From an uncultured archaeon (GTDB lineage Archaea > Aenigmatarchaeota > Aenigmatarchaeia > QMZP01), in the NCBI GenBank assembly GCA_964555875.1, contig CAZKUD010000002.1, positions 1 to 59,609 on the forward strand: a DNA stretch of 59,609 nt. The letters run 5' to 3'. The translations under genes were made by a program, and so were the position numbers. Of the stretch, positions 4,465 through 59,609 are shown piece by piece. The notes under the pieces are model-generated. The model saw only the letters and a program-made list of their open reading frames with translations, made no database searches and was not told the DNA's origin. The first letter of the stretch is position 1. Every line of letters begins with the position of its first letter.

Positions 4465-7400
4465 TCACCGCTTTGTCAAGAAATAGGCGGCTGCCAGTAT
4501 CACCAGAATAGCGACCACGGCAACCACGCCGTAAAGCAGGTAATCCGCCAGGGGTTCAGGTTGGGCCACAGGGGCAGCAGTCGACGGCGCCTCCTCTTGC
4601 TGGACCGGGGCCTCGGCCGGGGTGTAGCAGAAGCCGTCATTCCCGCAACTGCCTGCGCAGTCCGCATCAGTGACGCACCTCATGCCGTCAGCGCACGGTA
4701 GGCAGGAACCTCCGCAGTCAACATCGCTTTCGTCCCCGTTCAGGATGCCGTCAGAGCATGTAGCAGGAGGCACATACTCGCATGCCCGCTCCTCTGTCTT
4801 GTCCTTGGTGGAGCACGTGCCCGTGTTTTCGCAGAACCTGTGCTGGGTGCCGTTCGGCAGGCAGGCTGACCAGTCCTCACATTCCCAGACAATCGAACAC
4901 GGGGACGGGGGAGTTGTAGTGCTTTCCTCAGCGGCTGCTGCGGCTGCTGCGGCTGTGCTGCCGCCGATTCCCCACAGGCTGAAGTGGGTCGTGTTGGCCC
5001 AGACATAGTTGTTGGCTGTGTCCACCCCGCCGTCCGGCGGGTCGTAAGCGCTCCAGCTGTCGCTGGTGGCGTTGTAGTAGTGTATCCTCAGGCTGCTCTC
5101 GTCGAGGTTTTGGGCCGAAACTTCGGCATCGGTGTAGTATATCTTGATGATGGCATAGCTTAGGCTTGTCATACCGGTAGATATGCTGACATACCTTCCA
5201 AGCTCCTGCACGCCGAATGCTGACGTGGTCGGGTTGCTGTTGAACTCGTTCATGGTGACTGGAACGCTCTCGTTCTGATCTGTGACTATGTCCAGCGCAG
5301 AATTCATGCCTGTGGTGGACTGGTTGATCGAGTATTCATTGCCTGCGGTGGTGCTGGCCGTGGTGTTGTAGGTGTCGCTGTAGTTGGTGGCCAGCAGGGA
5401 CCAGGTGTCGGACAGGCCCACATTCGAGTTGGAATCGTTGCACCTGACATACCACCTGTGGAACGCAAGGGTCGTGTAGACGTTCGCGAAGGTGCTGTTG
5501 GCGTTGTCTGTCACGGCCGAGTAAGCCTTGCTCTCGTTCGCCAAATTGTCAATGTAGAGGGTGCAGTTGTTGCTGGCTGAATTGTTGACCAGGTTGGTGG
5601 GATAGAATATGAAGTTGACGTTCCCGGACGCCGTGAGTATATGGTCATTGACGGGGGACTTCAGTTTTACGCAGAAACTGTTGCCCGTGGCTGTCACGCT
5701 GCCCCCGCTGGCAGTGACTATTCCCTGGCTGTTGTCGCATATGGTGTTTCCCGTGGCAGTTGCGCTGCTGCTTCCGCTGGCGTGGATGGCCGGACCGCTG
5801 TCAGTGTAACGGATGATGTTGTCAGATATCGTGTTGCCCGTGGAGCCGATGGCCAGCCTGATGCCGTAATCAGTGTTGTTGAGTATGGTGTTCTGGTCTA
5901 TGGTGTTGTCCTTGCTGTTCGTCTGGAGGTAGATGCCTGTCTTCGGGGTACGGGTGTTGAAGCTCACTGTGTTGTTGTAGACTGTGTTGCTGTTGGAATT
6001 GACTATATGTATCCCTGTATCGCAGTGCGAGGCGTTGTTGTGGCTTATGGTTGAGCCGTTGACGTTTTCGATGTATATGCCGCTGACCGCCAATGCATAG
6101 TTGTTGTACAGCGTGTTTCCCGTGATAGTGTGGCCGACAGAGTTGACCAGGTATATGCCTGAAGAGAACCCGTCCACAATGCAGTCAGTGATTGTAAGGC
6201 TGTCTATCCCGTTTGCCTGTATGCCGTAATCCTGGCCTCCGGTGAAATGGTCCCAGCTGGTATGGGATATCTTATGGCCCGCGCAGTCCAGGGTTATGCC
6301 GGAGCTGCCGAGCGCCAGGGCATTGTCATCACACAGCAGGTCCTGGGACATCGTGAAACCGGACGTCAGGGTGTGGCCGCAGAGCTCTGTGAACACTGTC
6401 GTTGTAAGGCCAAGGTTGGTATAGCTGTCATTGGCATAGACCGTTATGTTAGAGACTCCCCCGTAGCTGGAGAGGTCTATGCTGCTCACGTTGGCGCAGC
6501 TGTCCAGGGACGTATTGGGGCCTTCGTTTATGCTGTACCAGCAGCTGTCCAGATTGATGTCGCTTGCGCTGTAGTTCAGGCCGTTCAGGTAGCTGTACAG
6601 CGTGCTGCCGCTTGACGGGTTGTATATCGTGATGTCCGGCGGTATGACGTCCACGTATATAGATGTGGCGGCTGTTGCATTATGGCCGCTCATGCCTCCG
6701 TAGTCCTCGGCATAGGCTGTCATCGCGTTCCATCCTGAGCCGAGAGTCGGGGAAGTGAAGTTGCAGACGTAGTATTCATAGTCATCGTACATGTTGCAGG
6801 TCATGTTGTCTATGGTGTACCCCTGCCCCTGGACCTGGACAAGTATGGTCGCATTGTTTATAGCAGTCCCTGTACCGTTGAAGCTAACGTTGACCGGAGG
6901 CATGTCATTGTTCGTGGAGCTGCCGTTCTGCGGAGTGATAAAGGTCACCACAGGGTTCTGGGTGTCAGACGCGGAATACCCGGAGAATCCGTATACCTGG
7001 AACGTGAGGTTCTCGCCATCATAGCTTATGGTGGAGCTGTTGACGCCTGCGGCGCCTGCATCGGCCAGGACTGCAGGCGTGCTTTTGAAAGGCAGGTAGT
7101 AAAGTGTTATCGTAGTCGTGGTGTTCAGGGCCGCGAAGGCTGTGGTATTGACATATATGTAGCTGTCCCCGTACGAGAAGGGCGGATAAACGGTCACGCT
7201 TATGGCGTCCCCCAGGTTATCCAGTGCCTGACCGGTTGCCGGGTCTGACATGTTGATGGAACTCATGTTCAGCAGGGCTGAGCGCAGATATCCCTGTTCT
7301 GTCTGGAATCCGCAGGACTGAGTCCTGTTCAGGAAGATGTCTATGATGAAATTGATTGAATCAAAGTCAAGCTCTGTGCTCAGGTTCGTCGTGAGCGCAC

Positions 7401-10400
7401 CGAACGCCTCGCATCCGGACTGTTCGCTCGGGGGCACCGTGAAGTTGTAAAGTATCACGGGATTGGAAGACATGCCAATCATGGGCAATGGGTTGTTGGC
7501 ATTGTCATAAGCCATTATGGTTGTGTTGAACCCCTCGAAGTCATAGTCAGCGCCTGTCACAGTGTAGCTCGCGTTGTAATACCCGCCGCCCATCGGCGTC
7601 ATGTTGACGGATGCGTCATCGAAGGTGAAGTTTGCTGTTACATTGGCCACCCCTGATTCCCCGTCGGTAACGTTGGCGACAAGGTGAACGACATTGTTGC
7701 CGGACGCTGTGCTGTAGAAGTAATCAGTATCGTTCAGCCAGGCATGGACGAAAGTCGGGGGGATGTTGTCAACCGTAACCGTTATGTTGGCATTGTTGAA
7801 GTTGCCCGCAGAGTCATTGGCCAGAATCTGCAGCACGCAGGAGCCCTGGCCTGCCGTGCTGGTGTCCCACCAGCCTGTCTCGTAATCTGCCGTCGCATTG
7901 ATGATGGTGCTGGTGAACATGGCCTGCATGTCCCCTCCGCAGTAGGAATTGAACGTCGCATAATCCCAGCCGGATGTGGAGTCGTCAACAGTGTAATTCA
8001 CCGTCACGTTGCCCGTCAGGACATCGCTGTCTGACGGGCTGTTCCAGGAAAGCCCGGGAGCGGTGTCGTCAATGCCAAGTTCCACCATTTCGGTATTGTT
8101 GACATTGTTCGCGCTGTCGTTTGCGAAAATCGTGATGTTGTATGCACCATCAGGAACCCCTGTGATGTCAAAGGTGGCGTTCCAGAAGTTGCCGTCCTGG
8201 CTCATGGCCGTCCAGGGGCCGTTGTGCGTGGAGTTCTCCCACCTGTATGCGACAGTATGCGTGCCAGACCCTGTATCAATAACGCTTGCGTTAATCACGA
8301 AATTGTGGTTGTACCACATGTTCATGGGCAGGATCATCATTACAACCGGATTTGTCTCGTCTACGATTACCTCCCTCTCTTCGCTGGCATTGAAGTTGTA
8401 GACGTATCCGCTGCCTCCCCACTTCATGGCGGAGTCATTGGCATAGACGACGAAAGAGGTGCTCCCCTCGAACATGTAAGTCATGTTGTGCCAGCAGCTC
8501 ACGCTCTTGCCTGATCCCACCCTGGTCATCGTTATGTTGTACATTTTGCTCACTTCCAGGATGCAGCCCGTTATTGGGGTCAGGGCATCTGTCACTGTGA
8601 CATTGACATATGTCCAGTTAACAGCCCTGCACGTGAGGTTGTCAGGCGTCGGGTAGACGAAGTTCACTGAAGACGGAGGGGTCATGTCGACTGTCAGGGT
8701 CCTGTTGGCGTCAGACCAGTCTTCATTGCCTGCGCTGTCATTGCAGTAGGCTCCCCATACATGCTGGCCCTCGGGCAGGCCGTCCACTTCTGCGGTCCAC
8801 ATCGCGCTGTCCACAGGACTGGTGTTGGTCTGGTTGGCGTGCCAGGTCCCTGTCCAGTTGCCCCAGAGCTGGAGGGTGTTTGGCATCATGTTGTCGCTGC
8901 AGTTCAGGTCGAACCAGTAGGACGGGTTGGAGCTGTTCCAGTCATCGCTCGGCATCCAGTCAAGCGTTGCAGTCGGGGGAGTTTCGTCTGTAGTGAACTG
9001 CCTGGTCTCGCTGACGTTGAAGTTGCCATTTGTGCCAACGGAGTCATTCGCGTATACCCTGTAATCATAAAGCGCCTGGTTCAGATTAGTGATGTTGATC
9101 CAGCAGTTCACGCTGTTGCCTGAGCCCACCCTTGCCATGGTATAATTGTTGTTGTACATCTCCAGGATGCAGCCCGTTACGGCTGTGGCCGCGTCCGTAA
9201 CGGTCACGTTGACGTATGTCCAGTTCACGTTCCTGTAAGTGTTGTTGTCGGGCGTCGGGTAGACGAAGCTGACGGACGAAGGCGGAGAAGTGTCGAGCGT
9301 GACGTTCCTGACTGATTCATTGCCGAAGTTGTTGAGGGTGTCATTGGCATAGACCTTGTAGGTATGGGTTCCGTCGCTGTCCGTCTTGTTGTACCAGCAG
9401 ATTGCCCCGCCAGACACTGTGTCAGCCTTACCCATGGTGTAGTTCGTGCCATCCCATTCCAGGAGGCAGTCCGAGACGGATACGCCGTCTGACACGCTCA
9501 CGTTGACGAAGGCCCATTCCTGGGACAGGTTAGCATCGTCTATCGGAGGTATGCTCGATACAAGGTAGGAGACAGAAGGCCCTGTCTGGTCAACCGTAAA
9601 GGTGCCGTTAATATCCGACCAGTCGCTGTTGCCTGCGCTGTCATTGCAATAGACACCCCATATCCAGGTTCCCTCCTGTATTCCGTCAACGGTCACGTTC
9701 CAGATGACATCATTATGCGGGGATGAGTTGGTCTGGTTCAGGTGCCATGTACCTGTCCAGTTGCCCCAGAGCTGGAGGGTATTAGGATTGGAGTCAGAGC
9801 AGTTCAGGCCGAAAGTGACGCTCGAGCTGGAGGTGTTATGCCCCTCGACAGGCTGGACAGGTTCACCTACCGTGGCTATTGGATTTGTCTCGTCTACGAT
9901 TACCTCCCTCTCTTCGCTGGCATTGAAGTTGTAGACGTATCCGCTGCCTCCCCACTTCATGGCGGAGTCATTGGCATAGACGACGAAAGAGGTGCTCCCC
10001 TCGAACATGTAAGTCATGTTGTGCCAGCAGCTCACGCTCTTGCCTGATCCCACCCTGGTCATCGTTATGTTGTACATTTTGCTCACTTCCAGGATGCAGC
10101 CCGTTATTGGGGTCAGGGCATCTGTCACTGTGACATTGACATATGTCCAGTTAACAGCCCTGCACGTGAGGTTGTCAGGCGTCGGGTAGACGAAGTTCAC
10201 TGAAGACGGAGGGGTCATGTCGACTGTCAGGGTCCTGTTGGCGTCAGACCAGTCTTCATTGCCTGCGCTGTCATTGCAGTAGGCTCCCCATACATGCTGG
10301 CCCTCGGGCAGGCCGTCCACTTCTGCGGTCCACATCGCGCTGTCCACAGGACTGGTGTTGGTCTGGTTGGCGTGCCAGGTCCCTGTCCAGTTGCCCCAGA

Positions 10401-10908
10401 GCTGGAGGGTGTTTGGCATCATGTTGTCGCTGCAGTTCAGGTCGAACCAGTAGGACGGGTTGGAGCTGTTCCAGTCATCGCTCGGCATCCAGCCAACCGT
10501 TGCAGTCGGGGGGACGGCATCCACAGTTATCACGTTTACTGAGGAGGTCTGCATGTCCGTGCCGTTGACGCATGTCACGTTCCAGAAGTGGGACATGTTG
10601 GATATGCTCACATTGGACTGGAGTATGGTGTTGACGCCTACCAGGGTCGTGGAATTGGTCGCCACCTCGGAATCGTCTATGAAAAGCAAACAGACTGCCG
10701 TCGCATTGTCGCCCGCATAGTTGAACTCGAACTGTATGGTGTCATTGTTGCCTGTTGTCCAGCTGGTGTCCGCGGGGGACACGAGGTTCACGGCGTCCAG
10801 GCCCGCAGCAAAGACTGGGAGAACGTAAAAAATGAAAGCCGTGCATAATAGAGCAAACGCGCCTATACCTACCCCGAATTTAGCTAGCCCCACCAAGCCC
10901 TTTCTCAT
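4465..10908 (-). CDS. Giant (2147 aa) membrane-anchored surface glycoprotein: Ig-like repeats, parallel beta-helix (NosD-like), PGF-pre-PGF-like domain, TSP1-like and Cys-rich modules, C-terminal TM
   Basis: N-terminal signal/TM, dozens of N-x-S/T sequons, repeated YANDSAGN motifs, NN/GI-rich beta-helix segment, WECEDWSACL...RFC, CSDGILNGDESDVDCGGSC, terminal LLYGVVAVVAILVILAAAYFLTKR. Confidence 0.93.
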   Translation of the reverse strand: MRKGLVGLAKFGVGIGAFALLCTAFIFYVLPVFAAGLDAVNLVSPADTSWTTGNNDTIQFEFNYAGDNATAVCLLFIDDSEVATNSTTLVGVNTILQSNVSISNMSHFWNVTCVNGTDMQTSSVNVITVDAVPPTATVGWMPSDDWNSSNPSYWFDLNCSDNMMPNTLQLWGNWTGTWHANQTNTSPVDSAMWTAEVDGLPEGQHVWGAYCNDSAGNEDWSDANRTLTVDMTPPSSVNFVYPTPDNLTCRAVNWTYVNVTVTDALTPITGCILEVSKMYNITMTRVGSGKSVSCWHNMTYMFEGSTSFVVYANDSAMKWGGSGYVYNFNASEEREVIVDETNPIATVGEPVQPVEGHNTSSSSVTFGLNCSDSNPNTLQLWGNWTGTWHLNQTNSSPHNDVIWNVTVDGIQEGTWIWGVYCNDSAGNSDWSDINGTFTVDQTGPSVSYLVSSIPPIDDANLSQEWAFVNVSVSDGVSVSDCLLEWDGTNYTMGKADTVSGGAICWYNKTDSDGTHTYKVYANDTLNNFGNESVRNVTLDTSPPSSVSFVYPTPDNNTYRNVNWTYVNVTVTDAATAVTGCILEMYNNNYTMARVGSGNSVNCWINITNLNQALYDYRVYANDSVGTNGNFNVSETRQFTTDETPPTATLDWMPSDDWNSSNPSYWFDLNCSDNMMPNTLQLWGNWTGTWHANQTNTSPVDSAMWTAEVDGLPEGQHVWGAYCNDSAGNEDWSDANRTLTVDMTPPSSVNFVYPTPDNLTCRAVNWTYVNVTVTDALTPITGCILEVSKMYNITMTRVGSGKSVSCWHNMTYMFEGSTSFVVYANDSAMKWGGSGYVYNFNASEEREVIVDETNPVVMMILPMNMWYNHNFVINASVIDTGSGTHTVAYRWENSTHNGPWTAMSQDGNFWNATFDITGVPDGAYNITIFANDSANNVNNTEMVELGIDDTAPGLSWNSPSDSDVLTGNVTVNYTVDDSTSGWDYATFNSYCGGDMQAMFTSTIINATADYETGWWDTSTAGQGSCVLQILANDSAGNFNNANITVTVDNIPPTFVHAWLNDTDYFYSTASGNNVVHLVANVTDGESGVANVTANFTFDDASVNMTPMGGGYYNASYTVTGADYDFEGFNTTIMAYDNANNPLPMIGMSSNPVILYNFTVPPSEQSGCEAFGALTTNLSTELDFDSINFIIDIFLNRTQSCGFQTEQGYLRSALLNMSSINMSDPATGQALDNLGDAISVTVYPPFSYGDSYIYVNTTAFAALNTTTTITLYYLPFKSTPAVLADAGAAGVNSSTISYDGENLTFQVYGFSGYSASDTQNPVVTFITPQNGSSTNNDMPPVNVSFNGTGTAINNATILVQVQGQGYTIDNMTCNMYDDYEYYVCNFTSPTLGSGWNAMTAYAEDYGGMSGHNATAATSIYVDVIPPDITIYNPSSGSTLYSYLNGLNYSASDINLDSCWYSINEGPNTSLDSCANVSSIDLSSYGGVSNITVYANDSYTNLGLTTTVFTELCGHTLTSGFTMSQDLLCDDNALALGSSGITLDCAGHKISHTSWDHFTGGQDYGIQANGIDSLTITDCIVDGFSSGIYLVNSVGHTITGNTLYNNYALAVSGIYIENVNGSTISHNNASHCDTGIHIVNSNSNTVYNNTVSFNTRTPKTGIYLQTNSKDNTIDQNTILNNTDYGIRLAIGSTGNTISDNIIRYTDSGPAIHASGSSSATATGNTICDNSQGIVTASGGSVTATGNSFCVKLKSPVNDHILTASGNVNFIFYPTNLVNNSASNNCTLYIDNLANESKAYSAVTDNANSTFANVYTTLAFHRWYVRCNDSNSNVGLSDTWSLLATNYSDTYNTTASTTAGNEYSINQSTTGMNSALDIVTDQNESVPVTMNEFNSNPTTSAFGVQELGRYVSISTGMTSLSYAIIKIYYTDAEVSAQNLDESSLRIHYYNATSDSWSAYDPPDGGVDTANNYVWANTTHFSLWGIGGSTAAAAAAAAEESTTTPPSPCSIVWECEDWSACLPNGTQHRFCENTGTCSTKDKTEERACEYVPPATCSDGILNGDESDVDCGGSCLPCADGMRCVTDADCAGSCGNDGFCYTPAEAPVQQEEAPSTAAPVAQPEPLADYLLYGVVAVVAILVILAAAYFLTKR
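8348..8980. repeat. Copy A of a 633-bp intragenic direct repeat
   Basis: Matches 9881-10513 (offset 1533 bp = 511 codons); reads identical over 8348-8959, with 2 mismatches in the last 21 bp. Confidence 0.95.
9881..10513. repeat. Copy B of the 633-bp intragenic direct repeat
   Basis: Same 200+ aa block (DWMPSDDWNSSNPSYW...EEREVIVDETNP) appears twice in the translation. Confidence 0.95.
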
Positions 10909-53754: not shown

Positions 53755-55173
53755 ATGCCGTTCAATGCAGAGGACCACAGGACTGACATAGAAAATCTTG
53801 TAGCAGAACTGATTGATGAGGACAATGACATATCCCAGTCCACTGTCAGGGATTCGATAGCAGCCGCAATGAAGGGGAGGGGAGACCTGCTGACCCATGT
53901 GGAAATCAACATTAGGGTGAAACTGGAGAGTTCCCCTCTCTGGGAAGCAGCTAAAGCAGACCCAATAAGGTTCGGGGACCTGGTCGGGCAGCTTGTGGCC
54001 ATAATAGGCCCCGCCTACAGACGGAAGAAGGCTGCCATTGCGCCCGGGAGGCGCGCCGCGGGAGGCGGCAGAAGGGGGAGGGCAGCTGCCCCGGCACCAA
54101 TTCCGGCACCCGCTCCTGTCCCGGCCGCAGGGGCAGGGGGAGTCACGCTGACGGTCGTGGTCAAGGACGAGCGAGGCAACGCAGTAAACGACGCCACAAT
54201 ACACATATACGGGGTGACGGACACAGGAGGCTGGGAACTTGCCGGCGTCAACACCGACACATGGCCGGAACTGCTTCCGGAGGGCACATATACCATAGAG
54301 TGCATCAGGAGCGGATACGAGCTCAGCGAAAAGACCGTAGCCCTGAAGAAGGGCGTACAGACCATAAAGTTCACGCTGAAGAGAATAAAGGTGGAGCAGC
54401 CCTCTGAAGGCATGGCGACAATCCACGGAAAGGTTGTGGACGCCAAGACCAAGGAAAGGCTGGGCTCGGCCACCGAGAACATTGGGGTGACATCAGGGAG
54501 CGGGACTGCCTCGGCAGACCAGGACACTTCAACATACCTCATCGAGGACGCCAAGCCGGGCAGGGTCAAGATAACGGTCACCAGGCCCGGGTACATACCG
54601 CAGAAGAAGACCGTAGACGTTGACGAGGATGATATAAAGGAGGTCAACTTCGAGCTCCAGAAAAGGAAGGAGGGCGAAGAGCCTCTGACTAAATACTCGT
54701 TCGTAGACCATATCAAATCGCCCACAGGCCCCATAATACACATAATCATCGGGGCGGCCGTGCTGTCTGTTCTGGGCAATTTCTGGATATTCTTTGCCTT
54801 CCTTCTCTGGGCGCTTTACACCATGTTCCCTCCCCCATTCAGCCTGGAAACCATAGCAAGGGAGATGAGGAAGCAAGAGAAAGCCCTGATGGAAGAGACA
54901 GATTCAGACGAGATAAAGAAGATAGAGGCCAGGATAAGCGCCCTGAAAGGCGAGGCCGACATCGAGAAGATATGGCAAGAAGAGGAGGGCAGGGCAGGAT
55001 CGGTGATTTTCATGACCATTGCCAGGGAAATAATAAAGGTGGGCGGCATCTTCTTTCTTGGCCTTGGGATACTGCTTTCAGGCCTGCCGCTCTCTGTGCT
55101 GGTGGGCTTCATCGTGCTGATAGCCGCCTACATGATATTGGGCGGGGACAGGAAGGAGAAAAAGAAGAGCTGA
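53755..55173 (+). CDS. Membrane protein with two carboxypeptidase-regulatory-like beta-sandwiches before C-terminal TMs
   Basis: LTVVVKDERGNAVNDATI and IHGKVVDAKT...ITVTRPGY; PA-rich linker; 3-4 TMs. Confidence 0.8.
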   Translation: MPFNAEDHRTDIENLVAELIDEDNDISQSTVRDSIAAAMKGRGDLLTHVEINIRVKLESSPLWEAAKADPIRFGDLVGQLVAIIGPAYRRKKAAIAPGRRAAGGGRRGRAAAPAPIPAPAPVPAAGAGGVTLTVVVKDERGNAVNDATIHIYGVTDTGGWELAGVNTDTWPELLPEGTYTIECIRSGYELSEKTVALKKGVQTIKFTLKRIKVEQPSEGMATIHGKVVDAKTKERLGSATENIGVTSGSGTASADQDTSTYLIEDAKPGRVKITVTRPGYIPQKKTVDVDEDDIKEVNFELQKRKEGEEPLTKYSFVDHIKSPTGPIIHIIIGAAVLSVLGNFWIFFAFLLWALYTMFPPPFSLETIAREMRKQEKALMEETDSDEIKKIEARISALKGEADIEKIWQEEEGRAGSVIFMTIAREIIKVGGIFFLGLGILLSGLPLSVLVGFIVLIAAYMILGGDRKEKKKS

Positions 55174-55177
55174 TACC

Positions 55178-56986
55178 ATGGCAACGACATACACCGGAGT
55201 CGATTATGCAAGGGCCTGGGGAAGGGCCTTGCTGGGGATAATCATATTCATATTGGTCTGGATAAACTTCAGTTTCGACATAGCCCTGGTGGCTGCTGCA
55301 GCCCTGGTCTTCATCCCAATCCCGGCAGAGGGGGGCGACAGGTACGTCAACATGGGCCTAACCGTGGTGCTCATGGGGATGGTCCTTTTCATGACACGCT
55401 CCATGCTTGGCCTGAGTTTCAGTATTGAAACCGGCCTGGGGACAGGGCTTTTCATCACCGCAATAGTTCTTGCCGGCATCAGGATCGGCTGGGGGATAAA
55501 GAAGAGCGCCGATGACGCACCTATCATTGCGGGAGGCGGCACACCGCCCGAGCCCCCCAAAACATGGCTGTTTATCACAGTATCCTCGGTCATATTAATC
55601 ATCGCATCCATACTGTTCCTGCAGCCCTGGACATGGCCCTTCGGGACCATCATATTCATAACAGCCTGGGTGATAGCCATGATAGGCGGGATGGGCGGCT
55701 CTGCCACAGGGAACTGGTCCACCAAGGCGGGGACAGGTCTCGTGCTTTTCCTGGTGGTCTTCGTCATATATGCGGGAGGCGTCGGCACCCAGGAAGTGGG
55801 TTCCGCGTTCTTCGGGCAGCTGTGGCCCCAGGTGTACACAATGGGCAGCCAGTTTCTGGAGCCGATAATGGGCATATCAGGCCAACTGCAGTCCCAGCTG
55901 GGAGGGGGGCTCGAGATGCTCACCAACCCGACAGCCTTCGCGCAGCGCATAATGAACGGCTCTTACCAGAAGGACCCGAATACCGGGCTTGCAGGGGCGT
56001 ACGGGGTGGAGATAGATGAGATGCGTGTGACGCCTATCCATGTCCTCCAGCCGTACCAGGTGATACTCAAGCTCAACAACAAGGGGGCGTACGACGCGAG
56101 CGATATAGTGGTCACCCTGATGCCAGGAGAGAAGGCCCCCAAGGGCATAACAATGGAAAAGATCGGCATGGGTGAGGATCCCTCCAGGATTGTAAATGAC
56201 ATGATGAAGGGCTCCATAGAGCAGGTTATAATGGCCTCTGGCCTGGACGGGGTCGACTGCGGCGCCTACAAGACATACAATCTCTACGAGAAGTCACTCC
56301 CGATAGACGCCAACATAACCTACAGGTATTCCATAGACTCCTCGCTGGAGCTGGAGTTCATAAGCAGGAACGAGTGGGACAGGCTGGTCTCTGAGGGAGA
56401 GGCAATCACCACCAGGAAGAAGGCGGCCACGCTCAAGAACTCCCCCGCCCAGCTGAACATAGACACCTTGGAACAGCCCATAAGGGAAGGGACACCCCAC
56501 TTCATAGGGCTCACGCTAACGCCTAGCCAGAAGGGAGGGGAAGTGACCGGAGCTTCGATACACCTGGAGATGCCCAAGACCCTGATAGAGGATGCGTTCG
56601 AAAGCGAAAAGGGAGATAGCCCAAGGGAAGAGATAATCACCTGCACGCCACAGAAGGGCGGGGAGGAGCCTGTTTATGACTATAAATCAAAGGCAGACTC
56701 CGTCATAATAAAATGGAATGAACCGCCGGCAGGAAACACCGTATACTGCAGGCTGACAGGATACAGGACCGGGGATCTCCAGATGGAAGTTCCCACCCAG
56801 ACCCTTCTGGTACAGGCCAGAGCCAACTTCACGTTCTCCAACAAGAAGAGCATCCTCACGAAGGCCACGGTCGTCGGTGGCTGCTGCAGGGACGGGGACT
56901 GCGGGGAGGGGAAGGAGTGCACAGGAGAATCCGATGACACGCTTGGCATCTGTGCAACAAAGGCAAGCGCTCCCGCCTCTTCCTAA
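55178..56986 (+). CDS. Multi-TM membrane protein with large C-terminal extracytoplasmic domain
   Basis: About 6 TMs in the first 220 aa, then Ig-like sequence and a terminal Cys-rich motif. Confidence 0.85.
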   Translation: MATTYTGVDYARAWGRALLGIIIFILVWINFSFDIALVAAAALVFIPIPAEGGDRYVNMGLTVVLMGMVLFMTRSMLGLSFSIETGLGTGLFITAIVLAGIRIGWGIKKSADDAPIIAGGGTPPEPPKTWLFITVSSVILIIASILFLQPWTWPFGTIIFITAWVIAMIGGMGGSATGNWSTKAGTGLVLFLVVFVIYAGGVGTQEVGSAFFGQLWPQVYTMGSQFLEPIMGISGQLQSQLGGGLEMLTNPTAFAQRIMNGSYQKDPNTGLAGAYGVEIDEMRVTPIHVLQPYQVILKLNNKGAYDASDIVVTLMPGEKAPKGITMEKIGMGEDPSRIVNDMMKGSIEQVIMASGLDGVDCGAYKTYNLYEKSLPIDANITYRYSIDSSLELEFISRNEWDRLVSEGEAITTRKKAATLKNSPAQLNIDTLEQPIREGTPHFIGLTLTPSQKGGEVTGASIHLEMPKTLIEDAFESEKGDSPREEIITCTPQKGGEEPVYDYKSKADSVIIKWNEPPAGNTVYCRLTGYRTGDLQMEVPTQTLLVQARANFTFSNKKSILTKATVVGGCCRDGDCGEGKECTGESDDTLGICATKASAPASS

Positions 56987-56987
56987 A

Positions 56988-59360
56988 TCAGAACCTTCGC
57001 CTGATGGCATTCCGCCTGTCATGGGACTGCCTGGGCTTCTCCACTGCCTGGCCGTGGTTCTTCCTCGTCCAGGGTCTGCTTTCACCGGCAAATGATGTCA
57101 TTCCTCCAGGAGATGCTGAATCAGATTCATCTGAAGCGCCGCCGGTAATCCAGTCAATTATGTAGCTCAGGGTTTTGACGTGGTATCCAGCCTTGTCCCT
57201 GTGAGGCCGGTACCCTTCCATCCTTGCCCTGTTCCTGCTGAGCTTGAATACGTCTCCGGGTTCCGGTGCACGTGTCAGGCCCCTCATCTCGAACTGCAGC
57301 CTGCCGTTCCATCTCCTTTCATCATCTGGAAGGTCTATGTCCTCATCGTTTATGTCCCGTGACGTGACAAGGAAGACCTCATATTCACCCTCAACCTTCT
57401 TGACGCTCTCCGCGGCAAACAGGTTCTCGTAAATCCCTATGTCCTTTGGGTCCCTTTCCCTGGAGGCCAAGTAGTCGATCAGCATGTAAGCGCCCGTGAC
57501 AAGACCGAAAGCTGCGGCCACTCCCCCGATTCCCAGGCCCACCTTGCCTGCCTTGCTCAGGGAGGACGCAGCCGGAGGAACTGCAGGAGGCATAACACCG
57601 CCTGCCCATTCCTCCACCTTTTCCCTGACAGCACGGTCTTCGTCATCGACTAAAAGCTCCCTGGCATAATCCTTAACATCACCACGCGCCAAATCCCTTC
57701 CGTCTCTGCCGTCACGGCCGTCCCTTCCGTCTGTACCGTCCCTTCCGTCTGTACCGTCTCTGCCATCTGTACCGTCCCTTCCGTCTGTACCGTCCCTTCC
57801 GTCTGTACCGTCTCTGCCATCTGTACCGTCCCTTCCGTCTGTACCGTCCCTTCCGTCGCGGCCAGGTACTCCGGGTACGCCCCTTTCTCCCTTCAGGTTA
57901 GTGTAATCTTCCCAGGAGCCGTCAGGGTTCTGGAACCTCAGGCTTGTCCCGTCCCATTCGTGTGCAGGTGACTGGCCTGGTTCTCCGTCACGGCCGTCTG
58001 CACCGTCGTTGCCGTCCCTTCCGTTTCTGCCGTCACGGCCGTCCCTTCCGTCTGCGCCTGGAGGTCCCCTTTCACCTGGTGCTCCGTCACGGCCCCTCAG
58101 GTTCTTGGTTCTGATTACCCTTTCGACTGCACTATCGAACTCTTCGCCTTCCATGAGCTGCTGGAAGTATCCTGAGAGCAGGTCCAGGGCCTCTTCGCCT
58201 CCCAGAGCACTAAGGAAGTATCCTGAAAGCAGGTCCAGGGCCTCTTCGCCTCCCAGAGCATTGAGGAAGTATCCTGAAAGCAGGTCCAGGGCCTCTTCGC
58301 CTCCCAGAGCATTGAGGAAGTATCCTGAAAGCAGGTCTGAAGCCTCTTCACTTCCGAGACCATCATCACTTATGAGCACATCCTTGAATATCCTTCTGAC
58401 TGCCGCTTCCACATCTTCATCCTCGACTCCGGCACCGTCGCGGCCAGGAGGTCCTGCCGGGCCTGGTTCTCCTTGTTCTCCCTTAAGGTCAGCGTAATCT
58501 CCCCAGGAGCCGTCAGGGTTCTGGAACCTCAGGCCTGTGCCATCCCATTCGTGTGCAGGTGACTGGCCTGGTTCTCCGTCTGCACCAGGAGGTCCTGCCG
58601 GGCCTGGTACACCATCCGCGCCTCTCTCGCCTGGTTCTCCGTCTGCACCAGGAGGTCCTGCCGGGCCTGGTTCTCCCTGTTCTCCCTTCGGGAGTTCCAG
58701 TCCTGAAACCTTCTCGTTAAGGTAATTCTCAAGCTCTGTCCTGGTTGCAGCCATGTCCTCTTCCTTTATGCCTGCTTCACTTATGGCACTAGTCATCTCA
58801 CTTCTAAGGGCACCCTTCAGGCCGCTTATCTCGGTCTCTACAAGGTTCTTTGTCTCGTTGGCTATCGCCTGGAACACCGGAACAAGCTCCTCCTTGGTGA
58901 GATATATCCCGGTCTCGGCCAGCCTCTCCTGGACATAAGCGAGCTCCTCCTGCATGTACTTTGCGCATGTCTTCACCATCCTCTCCATCTTGAAGGCGGT
59001 GTGGACCCTCTCCAGCTCATGGAAAGCTTCCTGGACCATGTAAGAGGAGATGCGGCCCTCGATGGGCCTTCCCGTGTCAGGGTCCTTGCCGTCCAGCAGG
59101 CTGGATATGTAATGGGAGGTCGTTCTGATTTTCTCTGCCTCTTCAGGCCTGGTCTTGCCGTCCTCTATGAGTTGCTTCATCAGCTCATTGAGCCTGTTCC
59201 TGCGCACCGCTATCCTCGGGTTGGTCACCTTCCCTCCATCAGGGAAGTAGCGCCCGAGTATGCCCTCTATCACCGGGTCCAGGTAATTCCCCAGGTTGAC
59301 CGGATTGCCGTGGCTGGTAGGGTTCCCTTCACTTCCAGGATTTTCCGTGTATGAGGCCAT
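56988..59360 (-). CDS. Collagen-like (Gly-X-Y) membrane protein
   Basis: Several Gly-X-Y tracts, duplicated [16 protein letters not shown] module, 17-aa tandem repeat, single TM near the C-terminus; start ATG 59360 or GTG 59369. Confidence 0.9.
57718..57857. repeat. 18-bp VNTR (GTDGRD x7) with higher-order AAB-AAB-A pattern
   Basis: A=ccgtcccttccgtctgta, B=ccgtctctgccatctgta. Confidence 0.92.
58164..58349. repeat. 51-bp tandem repeat (about 3.6 copies, [17 protein letters not shown])
   Basis: gaagtatcctga starts at 58164, 58215, 58266, 58317. Confidence 0.95.
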
Positions 59361-59486
59361 ATTCCACACCGTTTCCTGCCTGGGAATAGCCCAGACTGAT
59401 GCTTATATATAGGCCGAAAGCTTTATAAAGGTATCGGGTTTTGTCACTTATTAATAGTTAATATTGCCCTATTAGCCCTTTAGTCG

Positions 59487-59609
59487 CTACAGCAGTCCGC
59501 GCTCACTCATGTATTTCTCGAAGAAGTCCCTCATCCTTTCCTTCACTGTCTTCCCTGTCCCGGGCCCCTGCTCCGGTGCGGGGGCTGCTTCTGGTGCGGG
59601 CACAGGAGG
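59487..59609 (-). CDS. 3' end of a gene entering from beyond the window
   Basis: PPVPAPEAAPAPEQGPGTGKTVKERMRDFFEKYMSERGLL*. Confidence 0.75.
   Translation of the reverse strand, partial: PPVPAPEAAPAPEQGPGTGKTVKERMRDFFEKYMSERGLL

What the first reader, a model, noticed from the sequence alone, without database searches (positions are those of the whole stretch)
56988..59360. Collagen-like protein with phage-tail-like modules and apparently inverted topology
Seen: no N-terminal signal peptide; a helical N-domain, Gly-X-Y tracts interrupted twice by a [23 protein letters not shown] module (57889-57989 vs 58480-58580, offset 591 bp), a 17-aa helical repeat, a GRD/GTD tract, then one TM near residue 620 and a C-terminal domain of about 150 aa. 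The interrupting module recalls, from memory, collagen-like phage fibre proteins. Inference: either a rare cytoplasmic collagen stalk or a fibre exported without a Sec signal, possibly an exapted viral fibre used for attachment. The charge-alternating Pro-free GRD tract implies salt-bridge-stabilised triple helices.
Basis: partly seen in the sequence, partly recalled or inferred. Interest (0 to 1): 0.6.

Follow-up and report, generated by a model that had tools for sequence, protein, structure and literature searches.

The report
Signal-less membrane-anchored archaeal collagen-like fibre
A tiny-genome archaeon carries a one-off gene for a three-stranded collagen-like rod whose core is shared with virus tail fibres, but it has no export signal and its membrane anchor sits at the far end, so which side of the membrane the rod occupies remains open.

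Summary
Window 56991-59360 (-) encodes a 790-aa protein. It has no signal peptide and no room for one upstream. Its parts are an all-helical N-domain, four Gly-X-Y blocks (Pfam Collagen, 87.6 bits), two copies of a 26-aa module, four 17-aa repeats, a Pro-free GRD/GTD tract, one glycine-zipper TM (607-632) and a 158-aa C-part.

The module is a real conserved mini-domain (P.H.W.GT.LRF.NPDG.WG). It matches tail-fibre phrog_17587 (E 9e-14) and occurs in tailed-phage contigs. It also occurs in signal-peptide-bearing proteins of bacteria and of three Thermoplasmata MAGs. I found no Pfam model, no PDB sequence match and no paper for it.

The N- and C-domains have no credible relatives in any search. 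The gene lies in a 6.9-kb block inserted into an order-wide syntenic block, and its GC3 is atypical. A trimer model supports a triple helix over residues 223-311.

Topology is unresolved. The missing signal peptide, the 158-aa post-TM part and the single N-glycosylation sequon favour a cytoplasmic rod (my lean, about 0.4). The acidic composition and the extracellular homologues favour an exposed fibre (about 0.3).

Verdict: a new variant of prokaryotic collagen-like proteins, of moderate interest.

The parts
56988..59360 (-). Whole CDS: 790 aa plus the stop at 56988-56990. An alternative GTG start lies at 59369.
59402..59429 (-). Two TATA-like boxes (TTTATAAA, TATATATAAG) lying 42-69 nt upstream of the ATG. 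GGTG lies 8 nt before the ATG. Probable own archaeal promoter.
   Evidence: Read directly. The archaeal promoter consensus is recalled, not tested.
58695..59360 (-). N-domain, residues 1-222. Polar start, then six predicted helices (24-38, 48-69, 72-89, 106-150, 156-195, 200-219). No credible relatives found.
   Evidence: low-confidence models, pLDDT 38 and 51; no credible homologues
58560..58685 (-). Collagen block 1a, residues 226-267 (14 Gly-X-Y triplets, Pro-rich).
   Evidence: inside the confident trimer interface
58482..58559 (-). Module copy 1, residues 268-293 ([26 protein letters not shown]). Predicted three short strands.
58428..58481 (-). Collagen block 1b, residues 294-311.
58095..58427 (-). 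Helical middle region, residues 312-422, with four 17-aa repeats (DNA array 58140-58337, period 51).
   Evidence: no homologue other than through the module
57969..58094 (-). Collagen block 2a, residues 423-464 (GRD-rich).
57891..57968 (-). Module copy 2, residues 465-490. Its DNA is 87-97% identical to copy 1.
57693..57890 (-). Collagen block 2b, residues 491-556: the GRDGTD array (18-nt period, 7.8 copies), Pro-free after residue 499.
57543..57692 (-). Pre-membrane linker, residues 557-606: an acidic helix (574-588), then the Pro/Ala/Ser stretch [10 protein letters not shown].
57465..57542 (-). Single hydrophobic glycine-zipper helix, residues 607-632 ([26 protein letters not shown]).
   Evidence: KD 1.73; helix 603-631 in the model; a similar Gly-rich helix recurs four times in unrelated protein P0004
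56991..57464 (-). C-part, residues 633-790: a segment of about 100 aa with mixed strand and helix, then a disordered basic tail ending RRNAIRRRF. No credible relatives found.
   Evidence: weak positional counterpart in the same-genus genome

Best explanation
The gene encodes a lineage-restricted, chimeric, homotrimeric rod that is held in the cell membrane by one glycine-zipper helix.

Shown or directly read:
- Four collagen blocks total 168 residues.
- They are broken twice by a 26-residue beta-hairpin module. The collagen-plus-module cassette is shared with tail fibres of tailed phages and with secreted collagen-like proteins.
- The helical N-domain, the 17-aa-repeat middle region and the post-membrane C-part have no detectable relatives.

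Inferred:
- Three chains register through the collagen blocks and the modules. The three membrane helices may help, by holding the chains together at one end.
- The rod would be roughly 60-80 nm long, of which about 48 nm is triple helix at the textbook rise of 0.286 nm per residue.

My committed lean on orientation, which is inferred and weak:
- There is no signal peptide, and the only topogenic element comes after 606 residues. The N-terminal rod therefore stays on the cytoplasmic face.
- Only the 158-residue C-part is translocated, as in single-pass proteins that carry a large cytoplasmic N-domain.
- On this reading the protein is a membrane-tethered intracellular spacer or scaffold, not a classical surface adhesin.
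For: Identity:
- Pfam Collagen, 87.6 bits.
- The module matches phrog_17587 (E 9e-14) and phrog_25191 (E 5e-10).
- In a nine-sequence alignment of module copies, 12 of 34 columns are invariant.
- Trimer model of residues 150-311 in three copies: score 0.58 against a best control of 0.00. The calibration mark was reached by 21 of 30 solved same-chain pairs and 0 of 23 single chains; that calibration used two copies, so it holds only roughly here. The three runs share at least 76% of their contacts and the partner pLDDT is at least 69. The confident interface is 223-311 with a one-residue stagger. Collagen helices are solved structures, so the pass may come from the model's memory.

Chimeric and lineage-restricted:
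- No credible N-domain relative.
- Residues 561-790 gave only two low-complexity hits among 1.84 billion representatives.
- The whole protein was found in none of 40 relatives apart from one collagen-only match.
- The gene sits in a 6.9-kb block between a membrane-protein gene and DUF63. Those two genes lie 0.1-3.8 kb apart in 6 of 6 relatives examined.
- GC3 is 0.60, against 0.65-0.86 for the native neighbours.

N-in lean:
- No signal peptide and no upstream frame for one.
- In this genome, 16 ORFs with an anchored-surface architecture all combine an N-terminal hydrophobic signal with a TM in the last 45 residues. This protein has neither feature.
- It has one N-X-S/T sequon in 790 aa. Signal-bearing ORFs carry 1.83 per 100 aa and ORFs without a TM carry 0.32.
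- Net charge is +2 before the helix and -1 after it (read).
- The co-oriented upstream orphan is just as acidic and has neither a signal nor a TM. Acidity therefore need not mean export.
Against: - Every relative of the collagen-plus-module cassette that I read ends up outside a cell. These are phage fibres and signal-peptide-bearing proteins in bacteria and in 3 of 3 archaeal (Thermoplasmata) loci.
- 4 of 7 other collagen-like ORFs read in this phylum start with a signal or lipobox.
- The N-terminal 600 residues have pI 4.0-5.1. That resembles this organism's signal-bearing ORFs (median 4.65, 80% below 5.5) and not its ORFs without a TM (median 8.5, 20% below 5.5).
- The C-part is neutral, with a strongly basic tail and three K/R within seven residues after the helix. 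That would suit a cytoplasmic location.
- The Pro/Ala/Ser stretch before the helix resembles an extracellular stalk.
- Both monomer models are of low confidence.
- No topology predictor was available. My gene calls for the proteome statistics are crude: longest ORFs weighted by GC3.
Confidence: 0.4

Rival explanations
1. The protein is an exposed surface fibre with the N-part outside and the C-part inside. The collagen rod projects from the cell, the helix anchors it, and the basic C-part stays in the cytoplasm. Export would use an unknown route that needs no signal peptide. The fibre would serve contact with a host or partner cell, as expected for a small-genome symbiotic archaeon.
For: - The relatives of the cassette are extracellular.
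- The N-part is acidic, like 80% of this organism's signal-bearing ORFs.
- The tail is basic and R-E-R follows the helix directly.
- A Pro/Ala/Ser stalk precedes the helix.
- A protein in another genome of the phylum places a (GAD)n collagen-like stalk directly before a C-terminal TM (L095).
- The gene lies next to a conserved cluster of large membrane proteins.
Against: - There is no signal peptide and no room for one.
- I know of no route that moves a 600-residue N-terminal domain capable of folding and trimerising across a membrane without a signal. This rests on recall, not on a search.
- The 16 anchored-surface ORFs of this genome all have a signal and a TM in the last 45 residues.
- The sequon density is like that of cytoplasmic ORFs.
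- The neighbour's acidity weakens the pI argument.
Confidence: 0.3
2. The protein is a fibre of a virus-like or released particle. It is made and trimerised in the cytoplasm as phage fibres are, which explains the missing signal. The helix sits in a particle-associated membrane, and the basic tail faces the particle's interior.
For: - The cassette is shared with phage tail fibres.
- There is no signal peptide.
- GC3 is atypical for three co-oriented genes.
- The chromosomal slot is variable and holds a transposase-like ORF and a RelE-like ORF in relatives (both names come from my reading, not from a family scan).
Against: - No capsid, portal, terminase, integrase or other viral hallmark appears among the 39 neighbouring proteins scanned with Pfam (11, 28), nor in the PHROG scan of the island genes.
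- The acidic neighbour has no relative in IMG/VR.
- The order of the block's genes is kept in the other genome of the genus, so it behaves as a stable chromosomal block.
Confidence: 0.12
3. The ORF is a young, drifting chimera with no settled function. It would have arisen from capture of a collagen cassette followed by repeat expansion.
For: - The end domains have no detectable relatives.
- The internal repeats are near-identical at the DNA level.
- Codon use is atypical.
Against: - The 2.4-kb frame is intact and has its own TATA-like promoter.
- The sequence is essentially unchanged in several metagenome runs.
- The same-genus genome has a convergent ORF at the same position. Its end aligns weakly with the C-part: BLASTP E 0.035, and 15 of 2000 shuffles score as high. 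A genome-scale search with that fragment was negative.
Confidence: 0.1

Closest known systems
Collagen-like tail fibres of tailed phages (PHROG families 17587, 5073, 8745, 6320, 1806)
   Same: - Gly-X-Y blocks broken by the same P.H.W.GT.LRF.NPDG.WG module.
- No signal peptide.
- Predicted trimer.
   Different: - Only about 48 of the 641 profile positions of phrog_17587 match.
- There is no tail-gene neighbourhood.
- It has a membrane helix plus a 158-aa C-part where a phage fibre would have a receptor-binding tip.
Signal-peptide-bearing collagen-like proteins carrying the same module: Thermoplasmata MAG loci L067, L077 and L078, and bacterial protein P0002
   Same: The same collagen-module-collagen cassette, at 58-67% identity over the module.
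   Different: These start with a hydrophobic signal or anchor and place globular domains after the collagen. The window protein has no signal, and its anchor lies after the collagen.
Streptococcal Scl1/Scl2 and Legionella Lcl adhesins (NCBIfam NF038329, NF038330, NF046116)
   Same: A helical N-terminal domain followed by a collagen-like stalk rich in charged residues and lacking hydroxyproline (the Scl/Lcl features are recalled).
   Different: - Scores are 92, 58 and 49 bits against cut-offs of 325, 400 and 500, which reflects collagen composition only.
- There is no signal peptide and no LPXTG motif.
Bacillus exosporium protein BclA (recalled, not searched)
   Same: A collagen-like trimer made without a signal peptide and folded in cytoplasm. 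This is a precedent for triple helices folding inside a cell.
   Different: BclA is attached to a spore layer through its N-terminus and has a C1q-like C-domain. It has no membrane helix. No sequence relation was tested.
Animal membrane collagens (types XIII, XVII, XXIII and XXV; recalled)
   Same: A single-pass membrane protein with an interrupted collagen rod.
   Different: They are type II proteins. The TM comes first and acts as the signal anchor, so the collagen is C-terminal and extracellular. Here the order is the mirror image.

Membership tests
Collagen triple-helix repeat proteins (Pfam PF01391) | Runs of Gly-X-Y that score above the Pfam gathering cut-off. | tested here: met
   87.6 bits against 27.2, in 3 stretches. 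Four blocks of 14, 6, 14 and 22 triplets.
Collagen triple-helix repeat proteins (Pfam PF01391) | Three chains form a staggered triple helix. | tested here: inconclusive
   Model only. Score 0.58 against a best control of 0.00; the mark was reached by 21 of 30 solved same-chain pairs and 0 of 23 single chains; contact agreement at least 76%; pLDDT at least 69. The pass may reflect solved collagen structures. The GRD/GTD block was not modelled.
Phage tail fibre protein (phrog_17587) | A match along the family profile. | tested here: not met
   Only profile positions 169-216 of 641 match the module (E 9e-14). The whole-protein hit spans positions 158-219.
Phage tail fibre protein (phrog_17587) | The gene lies in a tail or virion gene module. 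| tested here: not met
   The neighbours are cellular genes or orphans. By contrast, viral loci L004 and L008 do show tape measure, holin, portal and capsid genes.
Anchored archaeal surface proteins of this genome (signal peptide plus C-terminal TM) | An N-terminal hydrophobic signal. | tested here: not met
   No hydrophobic stretch before residue 600. The frame is closed 11 codons upstream.
Anchored archaeal surface proteins of this genome (signal peptide plus C-terminal TM) | The TM lies within the last 45 or so residues. | tested here: not met
   158 residues follow the helix. All 16 ORFs of this class in the genome have the TM in the last 45 residues, which was also my selection rule.
LPXTG collagen-like adhesins Scl1/Scl2 | A score above the NCBIfam cut-off. 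| tested here: not met
   92.2 against 325 and 58 against 400.
Tail-anchored membrane proteins | A single TM within about 30 residues of the C-terminus and a cytoplasmic N-domain (definition recalled). | tested here: not met
   The TM lies at 607-632 of 790.
Type II membrane collagens | The TM lies N-terminal to the collagen domain. | tested here: not met
   All collagen blocks (226-556) precede the TM.

The most novel reading that the evidence does not exclude
The rod really is cytoplasmic. It would then be a collagen triple helix working inside a cell as a membrane-tethered spacer about 60-80 nm long, in an archaeon whose cells are probably only a few hundred nanometres across. It would be built from a cassette otherwise used only outside cells. 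In the same reading, the 26-residue NPDG hairpin module is an undescribed trimer 'registration knot' that lets phages and cells restart a triple helix after a break.
Probability: 0.35. Interest if true: 0.7.

Novelty: new variant of a known kind. Interest (0 to 1): 0.45.

Why it matters
- Prokaryotic collagen-like proteins are known as surface adhesins, spore fibres and phage fibres. One with no export signal and its membrane helix after the collagen fits none of these layouts. It therefore either marks an intracellular use of the triple helix or points to an unrecognised export route in small-genome archaea.
- The interrupting module is conserved across phages, bacteria and archaea, yet I found no Pfam model, no solved structure and no paper for it. 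How triple helices re-register after interruptions is described as open in PMC11923368 (passages). A small autonomous trimer node would be a useful test object and a protein-engineering part.
- The locus also illustrates how a variable chromosomal slot next to a conserved membrane-protein cluster collects lineage-specific genes in these archaea.

Tried and rejected
- Searches failed because my coordinates were out of frame. I repeated them in frame.
- N-domain relatives: word-index searches at near lengths and for stand-alone lengths found none. A search of 371 genomes of the phylum gave four other matches at E 2.8e-4 to 7.6e-3 per genome, which is chance level for that many genomes. A metagenome contig scan found none. 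The ESM Atlas gave no usable hit.
- C-part relatives: the exhaustive phmmer search gave 2 hits, both low-complexity or repeat matches. The phylum search gave four weak matches; the one I read (L048) lay inside an unrelated 340-aa ORF. The Atlas gave none.
- Pfam at E up to 10 on the four non-collagen pieces gave nothing above cut-off.
- A PDB profile search with the module alignment gave a best E of 0.025 over 15 residues, which is not meaningful.
- The AF2 monomer models (pLDDT 38 and 51) were too poor for a fold search, so I ran none.
- PADLOC found nothing for the collagen protein or the acidic neighbour.
- For the acidic neighbour, PHROGs, IMG/VR and the phylum search all found nothing.
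- No RNA holder was listed among the sequencing runs, so nothing can be said about expression.
- Literature: the motif strings NPDGSW, NPDGTW and FQNPDG found one unrelated peptide-folding paper, seen in the listing only. 'collagen-like' with 'DPANN' found 0 papers. 'collagen-like' with 'archaea' and 'tail fiber' found 9 papers, none on such a protein judging by listing and abstracts.
- A genome-scale search of G000 with the G001 fragment was negative.
- Rejected idea: that the organism is a salt-in halophile, which would explain the acidity. The median pI of its ORFs without a TM is 8.5.
Full report
**1. What is there**

The minus strand of the window carries one long ORF, 56988-59369. I take the ATG at 59360 as the start, which gives 790 residues.
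- The stop-to-stop frame is only 804 codons, so no signal peptide can be hidden upstream.
- Two TATA-like boxes lie 42-69 nt before the ATG, and GGTG lies 8 nt before it (read). The gene therefore probably has its own archaeal promoter; the consensus is recalled.
- The organism is an archaeon with a genome of about 1.1 Mb: 15 contigs, 89% complete. Its neighbours include an eRF1-family protein, TYW2 and DUF63.
- An earlier scan note calls the phylum Aenigmatarchaeota. I did not check this.

**2. Anatomy (numbering from the ATG)**

| Residues | Feature |
|---|---|
| 1-222 | Polar start, then six predicted helices |
| 226-267 | Pro-rich Gly-X-Y block |
| 268-293 | Module copy 1 |
| 294-311 | Gly-X-Y block |
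| 312-422 | Helical region with four 17-aa repeats, [17 protein letters not shown] |
| 423-464 | GRD-rich Gly-X-Y block |
| 465-490 | Module copy 2 |
| 491-556 | GRDGTD array (X = R 12, T 7; Y = D 19) |
| 557-606 | Acidic helix and [10 protein letters not shown] |
| 607-632 | Gly-zipper hydrophobic helix (KD 1.73), the only one in the protein |
| 633-790 | C-part ending in a basic tail |

- Pfam finds only Collagen: E 4.5e-25, 87.6 bits against a cut-off of 27.2.
- TRF finds the 18-nt and 51-nt arrays at 90-95% matches.
- The two module copies are 87-97% identical in DNA over about 100 nt at offset 591. That points to a recent internal duplication or gene conversion.

**3. Is the sequence real?**

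Four metagenome runs from four coded studies were laid on window 56400-59609.
- Three of them each hold a 10,527-nt contig, at least 99% identical, that runs from the neighbouring conserved gene across the convergent junction to position 57747.
- Short unitigs tile the repeats, and a contig of about 965 nt covers the 5' end.
- No insertion or deletion was listed.
- The equal contig lengths mean the runs may not be independent, and one of them may be the source sample.

**4. The module**

A 51-residue piece around copy 1 matches phrog_17587 'tail fiber protein' (E 9e-14, 51.8 bits) and phrog_25191 (E 5e-10). Pfam Collagen gives that same piece only 11 bits.
- *Viral copies.* An IMG/VR scan returned 37 loci. 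Eight of them (L004-L011) match the module itself at 56-76% identity. Most of the rest match only the collagen flank.
- *Viral context.* In L004 the module protein lies after a tape measure and tail proteins and before a holin. In L008 it lies between portal and minor-tail genes, near terminase, protease and major head genes.
- *Conservation.* In nine aligned copies, 12 of 34 columns are invariant: P, W, G, L, F, N-P-D, W, L, G, G.
- *Cellular copies.* The module is not exclusively viral. A scan of one genome per species gave 22 loci in very diverse bacteria and in three Thermoplasmata MAGs. Of these, 18 match the module at 55-73% identity and four match only a short part. I read 16 of the 22. 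All three archaeal proteins, and several bacterial ones, begin with a hydrophobic signal-like segment. Protein P0002 is a signal-bearing collagen-module-collagen-RCC1 protein.
- *Likely shape.* The monomer model puts three short strands on each copy. NPDG is a classic hairpin turn (recalled; the only paper holding a related string is a peptide-folding study, seen in the listing only).
- *State of knowledge.* I found no Pfam model, no PDB sequence match and no paper.

**5. Trimer model**

I folded three copies of residues 150-311.
- The score was 0.58 against a best control of 0.00.
- The calibration mark was reached by 21 of 30 solved same-chain pairs and 0 of 23 single chains. That calibration used two copies, so it holds only roughly here.
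- The three runs share at least 76% of their contacts, and pLDDT is at least 69.
- The confident interface is 223-311, with pairs such as 258/257 that show a one-residue stagger. The helices 150-222 are not part of it.
- Collagen helices are solved structures, so the pass shows likeness and not proof.
- The GRD/GTD block was not modelled. Its Arg(X)/Asp(Y) pattern differs from the Lys-Gly-Glu/Asp motif documented as stabilising (passages of PMC11923368).

**6. The ends have no detectable relatives**

- *N-domain.* Two word-index searches found nothing. A search of 371 genomes of the phylum gave only chance-level matches. A metagenome scan and the Atlas gave nothing.
- *Residues 561-790.* An exhaustive phmmer search of 1.84 billion representatives gave two hits. 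One is a repeat protein. The other, P0004, shares only the Gly-rich helix, AGK[IV]G[VL]G[VI]GG.AA. The phylum search gave only chance-level matches.
- *Whole protein.* It is absent from the 40 relatives searched, apart from one collagen-only match.

**7. Genomic setting**

- The convergent downstream gene (55178-56986) encodes a 602-aa multi-TM protein with a Cys-rich end. It is found in 38 of 41 genomes of the order, G000 included.
- In 6 of 6 relatives whose loci I fetched, that gene lies 0.1-3.8 kb from a DUF63 gene.
- In G000 the two are 6.9 kb apart. Between them lie the collagen gene, an acidic orphan with PE-rich linkers that is broken by two scaffold gaps, a short ORF that spans one of those gaps, and a Ser/Thr kinase with a C-terminal TM.
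- The slot is variable in relatives. By my reading it holds, among others, a transposase-like ORF in G012 and a RelE-like ORF in G027.
- The three co-oriented genes have GC3 of 0.56-0.60, against 0.65-0.86 for 24 neighbours. The collagen blocks use GGA and GGT far more than the genome does.
- The acidic neighbour has no relative in 370 other genomes of the phylum, in IMG/VR or in PHROGs.
- The only other genome of the genus, G001, is 70% complete and its 602-aa orthologue is 51% identical. It keeps the order 179-aa ORF, long acidic ORF, kinase (41% identical), DUF63.
- After G001's 602-aa orthologue, with the two stops again only a few nucleotides apart, a convergent ORF runs off the contig end. 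Its last 120 residues align weakly with the C-part here: BLASTP E 0.035, and 15 of 2000 shuffles reach the score. A genome-scale search with that fragment was negative.
- The block is therefore probably genus-old and fast-evolving rather than a very recent arrival. No viral hallmark gene is nearby.

**8. Which side of the membrane?**

No topology predictor was available, so I used the organism's own proteome, with crude ORF calls.

Points favouring an exposed rod:
- ORFs without a TM have a median pI of 8.5, and 20% are below 5.5. ORFs with an N-terminal signal-like segment have a median of 4.65, and 80% are below 5.5. All N-terminal segments here have pI 4.0-5.1, while the C-part has pI 7.1 and a basic tail.
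- The relatives of the cassette are extracellular.

Points favouring a cytoplasmic rod:
- There is no signal.
- 16 ORFs in this genome have a signal plus a TM in the last 45 residues, the standard anchored layout. This protein has neither feature.
- It carries one N-X-S/T sequon in 790 residues. Signal-bearing ORFs carry 1.83 per 100 aa and ORFs without a TM carry 0.32. A density of 0.13 or less is seen in 23% of long no-TM ORFs and in 11% of long signal-bearing ORFs.
- The helix flanks have net charge +2 before and -1 after.
- The equally acidic neighbour has neither signal nor TM.
- Phage fibres, and BclA (recalled), show that such helices can fold in cytoplasm.

I know of no route that exports a 600-residue N-terminal domain without a signal (recalled). 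I therefore lean towards N-in at about 0.4, against about 0.3 for an exposed fibre, about 0.12 for a particle-associated fibre and about 0.1 for a drifting ORF.

**9. Comparison and verdict**

- The protein belongs to the collagen-repeat superfamily.
- It shares one cassette with phage tail fibres, but it fails the membership tests for phage fibres, for Scl-type adhesins, for this genome's anchored surface proteins, for tail-anchored proteins and for type II membrane collagens.
- Collagen repeats are sporadic in the phylum: 10 of 371 genomes score over the cut-off, G000 included. Of the seven other such ORFs I read, 4 start with a signal or lipobox.
- This is a new variant of a known kind. It has an unresolved and experimentally tractable topology question, and it carries a conserved module for which I found no description.

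Noticed in passing
window 55178-56986 (+); L058-L063: A 602-aa multi-TM protein with a Cys-rich C-terminal domain is found in 38 of 41 genomes of the order. In relatives it is part of much longer ORFs of 700-1500 aa. In one (G009, L060) the ORF continues into what reads like lytic-transglycosylase and M23-peptidase-like sequence (my reading, no family scan). It may be a host-contact or wall-acting apparatus.
   Followed up: partly
between window 56986 and G000:C2:63850; L058-L063: The slot between the 602-aa gene and DUF63 varies from 0.1 to 3.8 kb in six relatives. By my reading it holds a transposase-like ORF (G012), a RelE-like ORF plus membrane-anchored coiled-coil proteins (G027), or nothing (G003, G029).
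   Followed up: partly
window 59503-59609 and G000:C2:59710-62210 (L003:1-2501): A very acidic orphan (pI 4.25) with PE/AP-rich linkers and repeated small domains is broken by two 100-N scaffold gaps. G001 has a protein of more than 965 aa in the same style at the same place, with only faint similarity.
   Followed up: partly
G000:C2:62297-63853 (L003:2588-4144): A Ser/Thr kinase with a C-terminal TM (about residue 481 of 518) lies next to the block. Its kinase domain matches PADLOC PD-T4-6 and mad6 models at E about 1e-27, which may be no more than general kinase similarity. An orthologue is present in G001.
   Followed up: no
whole genome G000: The proteome splits sharply. ORFs without a TM have median pI 8.5 and 0.32 sequons per 100 aa. 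ORFs with a signal-like start have median pI 4.65 and 1.83 sequons per 100 aa. This is a useful home-made location indicator for this organism.
   Followed up: yes
window 53755-55173 (+): A 472-aa protein has two CarboxypepD_reg-like beta-sandwich domains placed before its two TM segments, with no N-terminal signal. This is a second protein at this locus whose 'extracellular-type' domains lack an evident export signal.
   Followed up: no
P0004: A 478-aa acidic protein from the representative library repeats four times a unit whose Gly-rich hydrophobic helix, AGKIGVGVGGAAALGGAGYGLY, resembles the helix of the window protein.
   Followed up: no
L095 (G047:C120): Another genome of the phylum encodes a large protein with a (GAD)n collagen-like stalk placed directly before a C-terminal TM and a three-residue tail. 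This is the standard anchored version of a collagen stalk.
   Followed up: no
window 4465-10908 (-): A 2147-aa protein with a signal, Big_3_3 and beta-helix/NosD domains and a C-terminal TM is probably a major surface protein.
   Followed up: no
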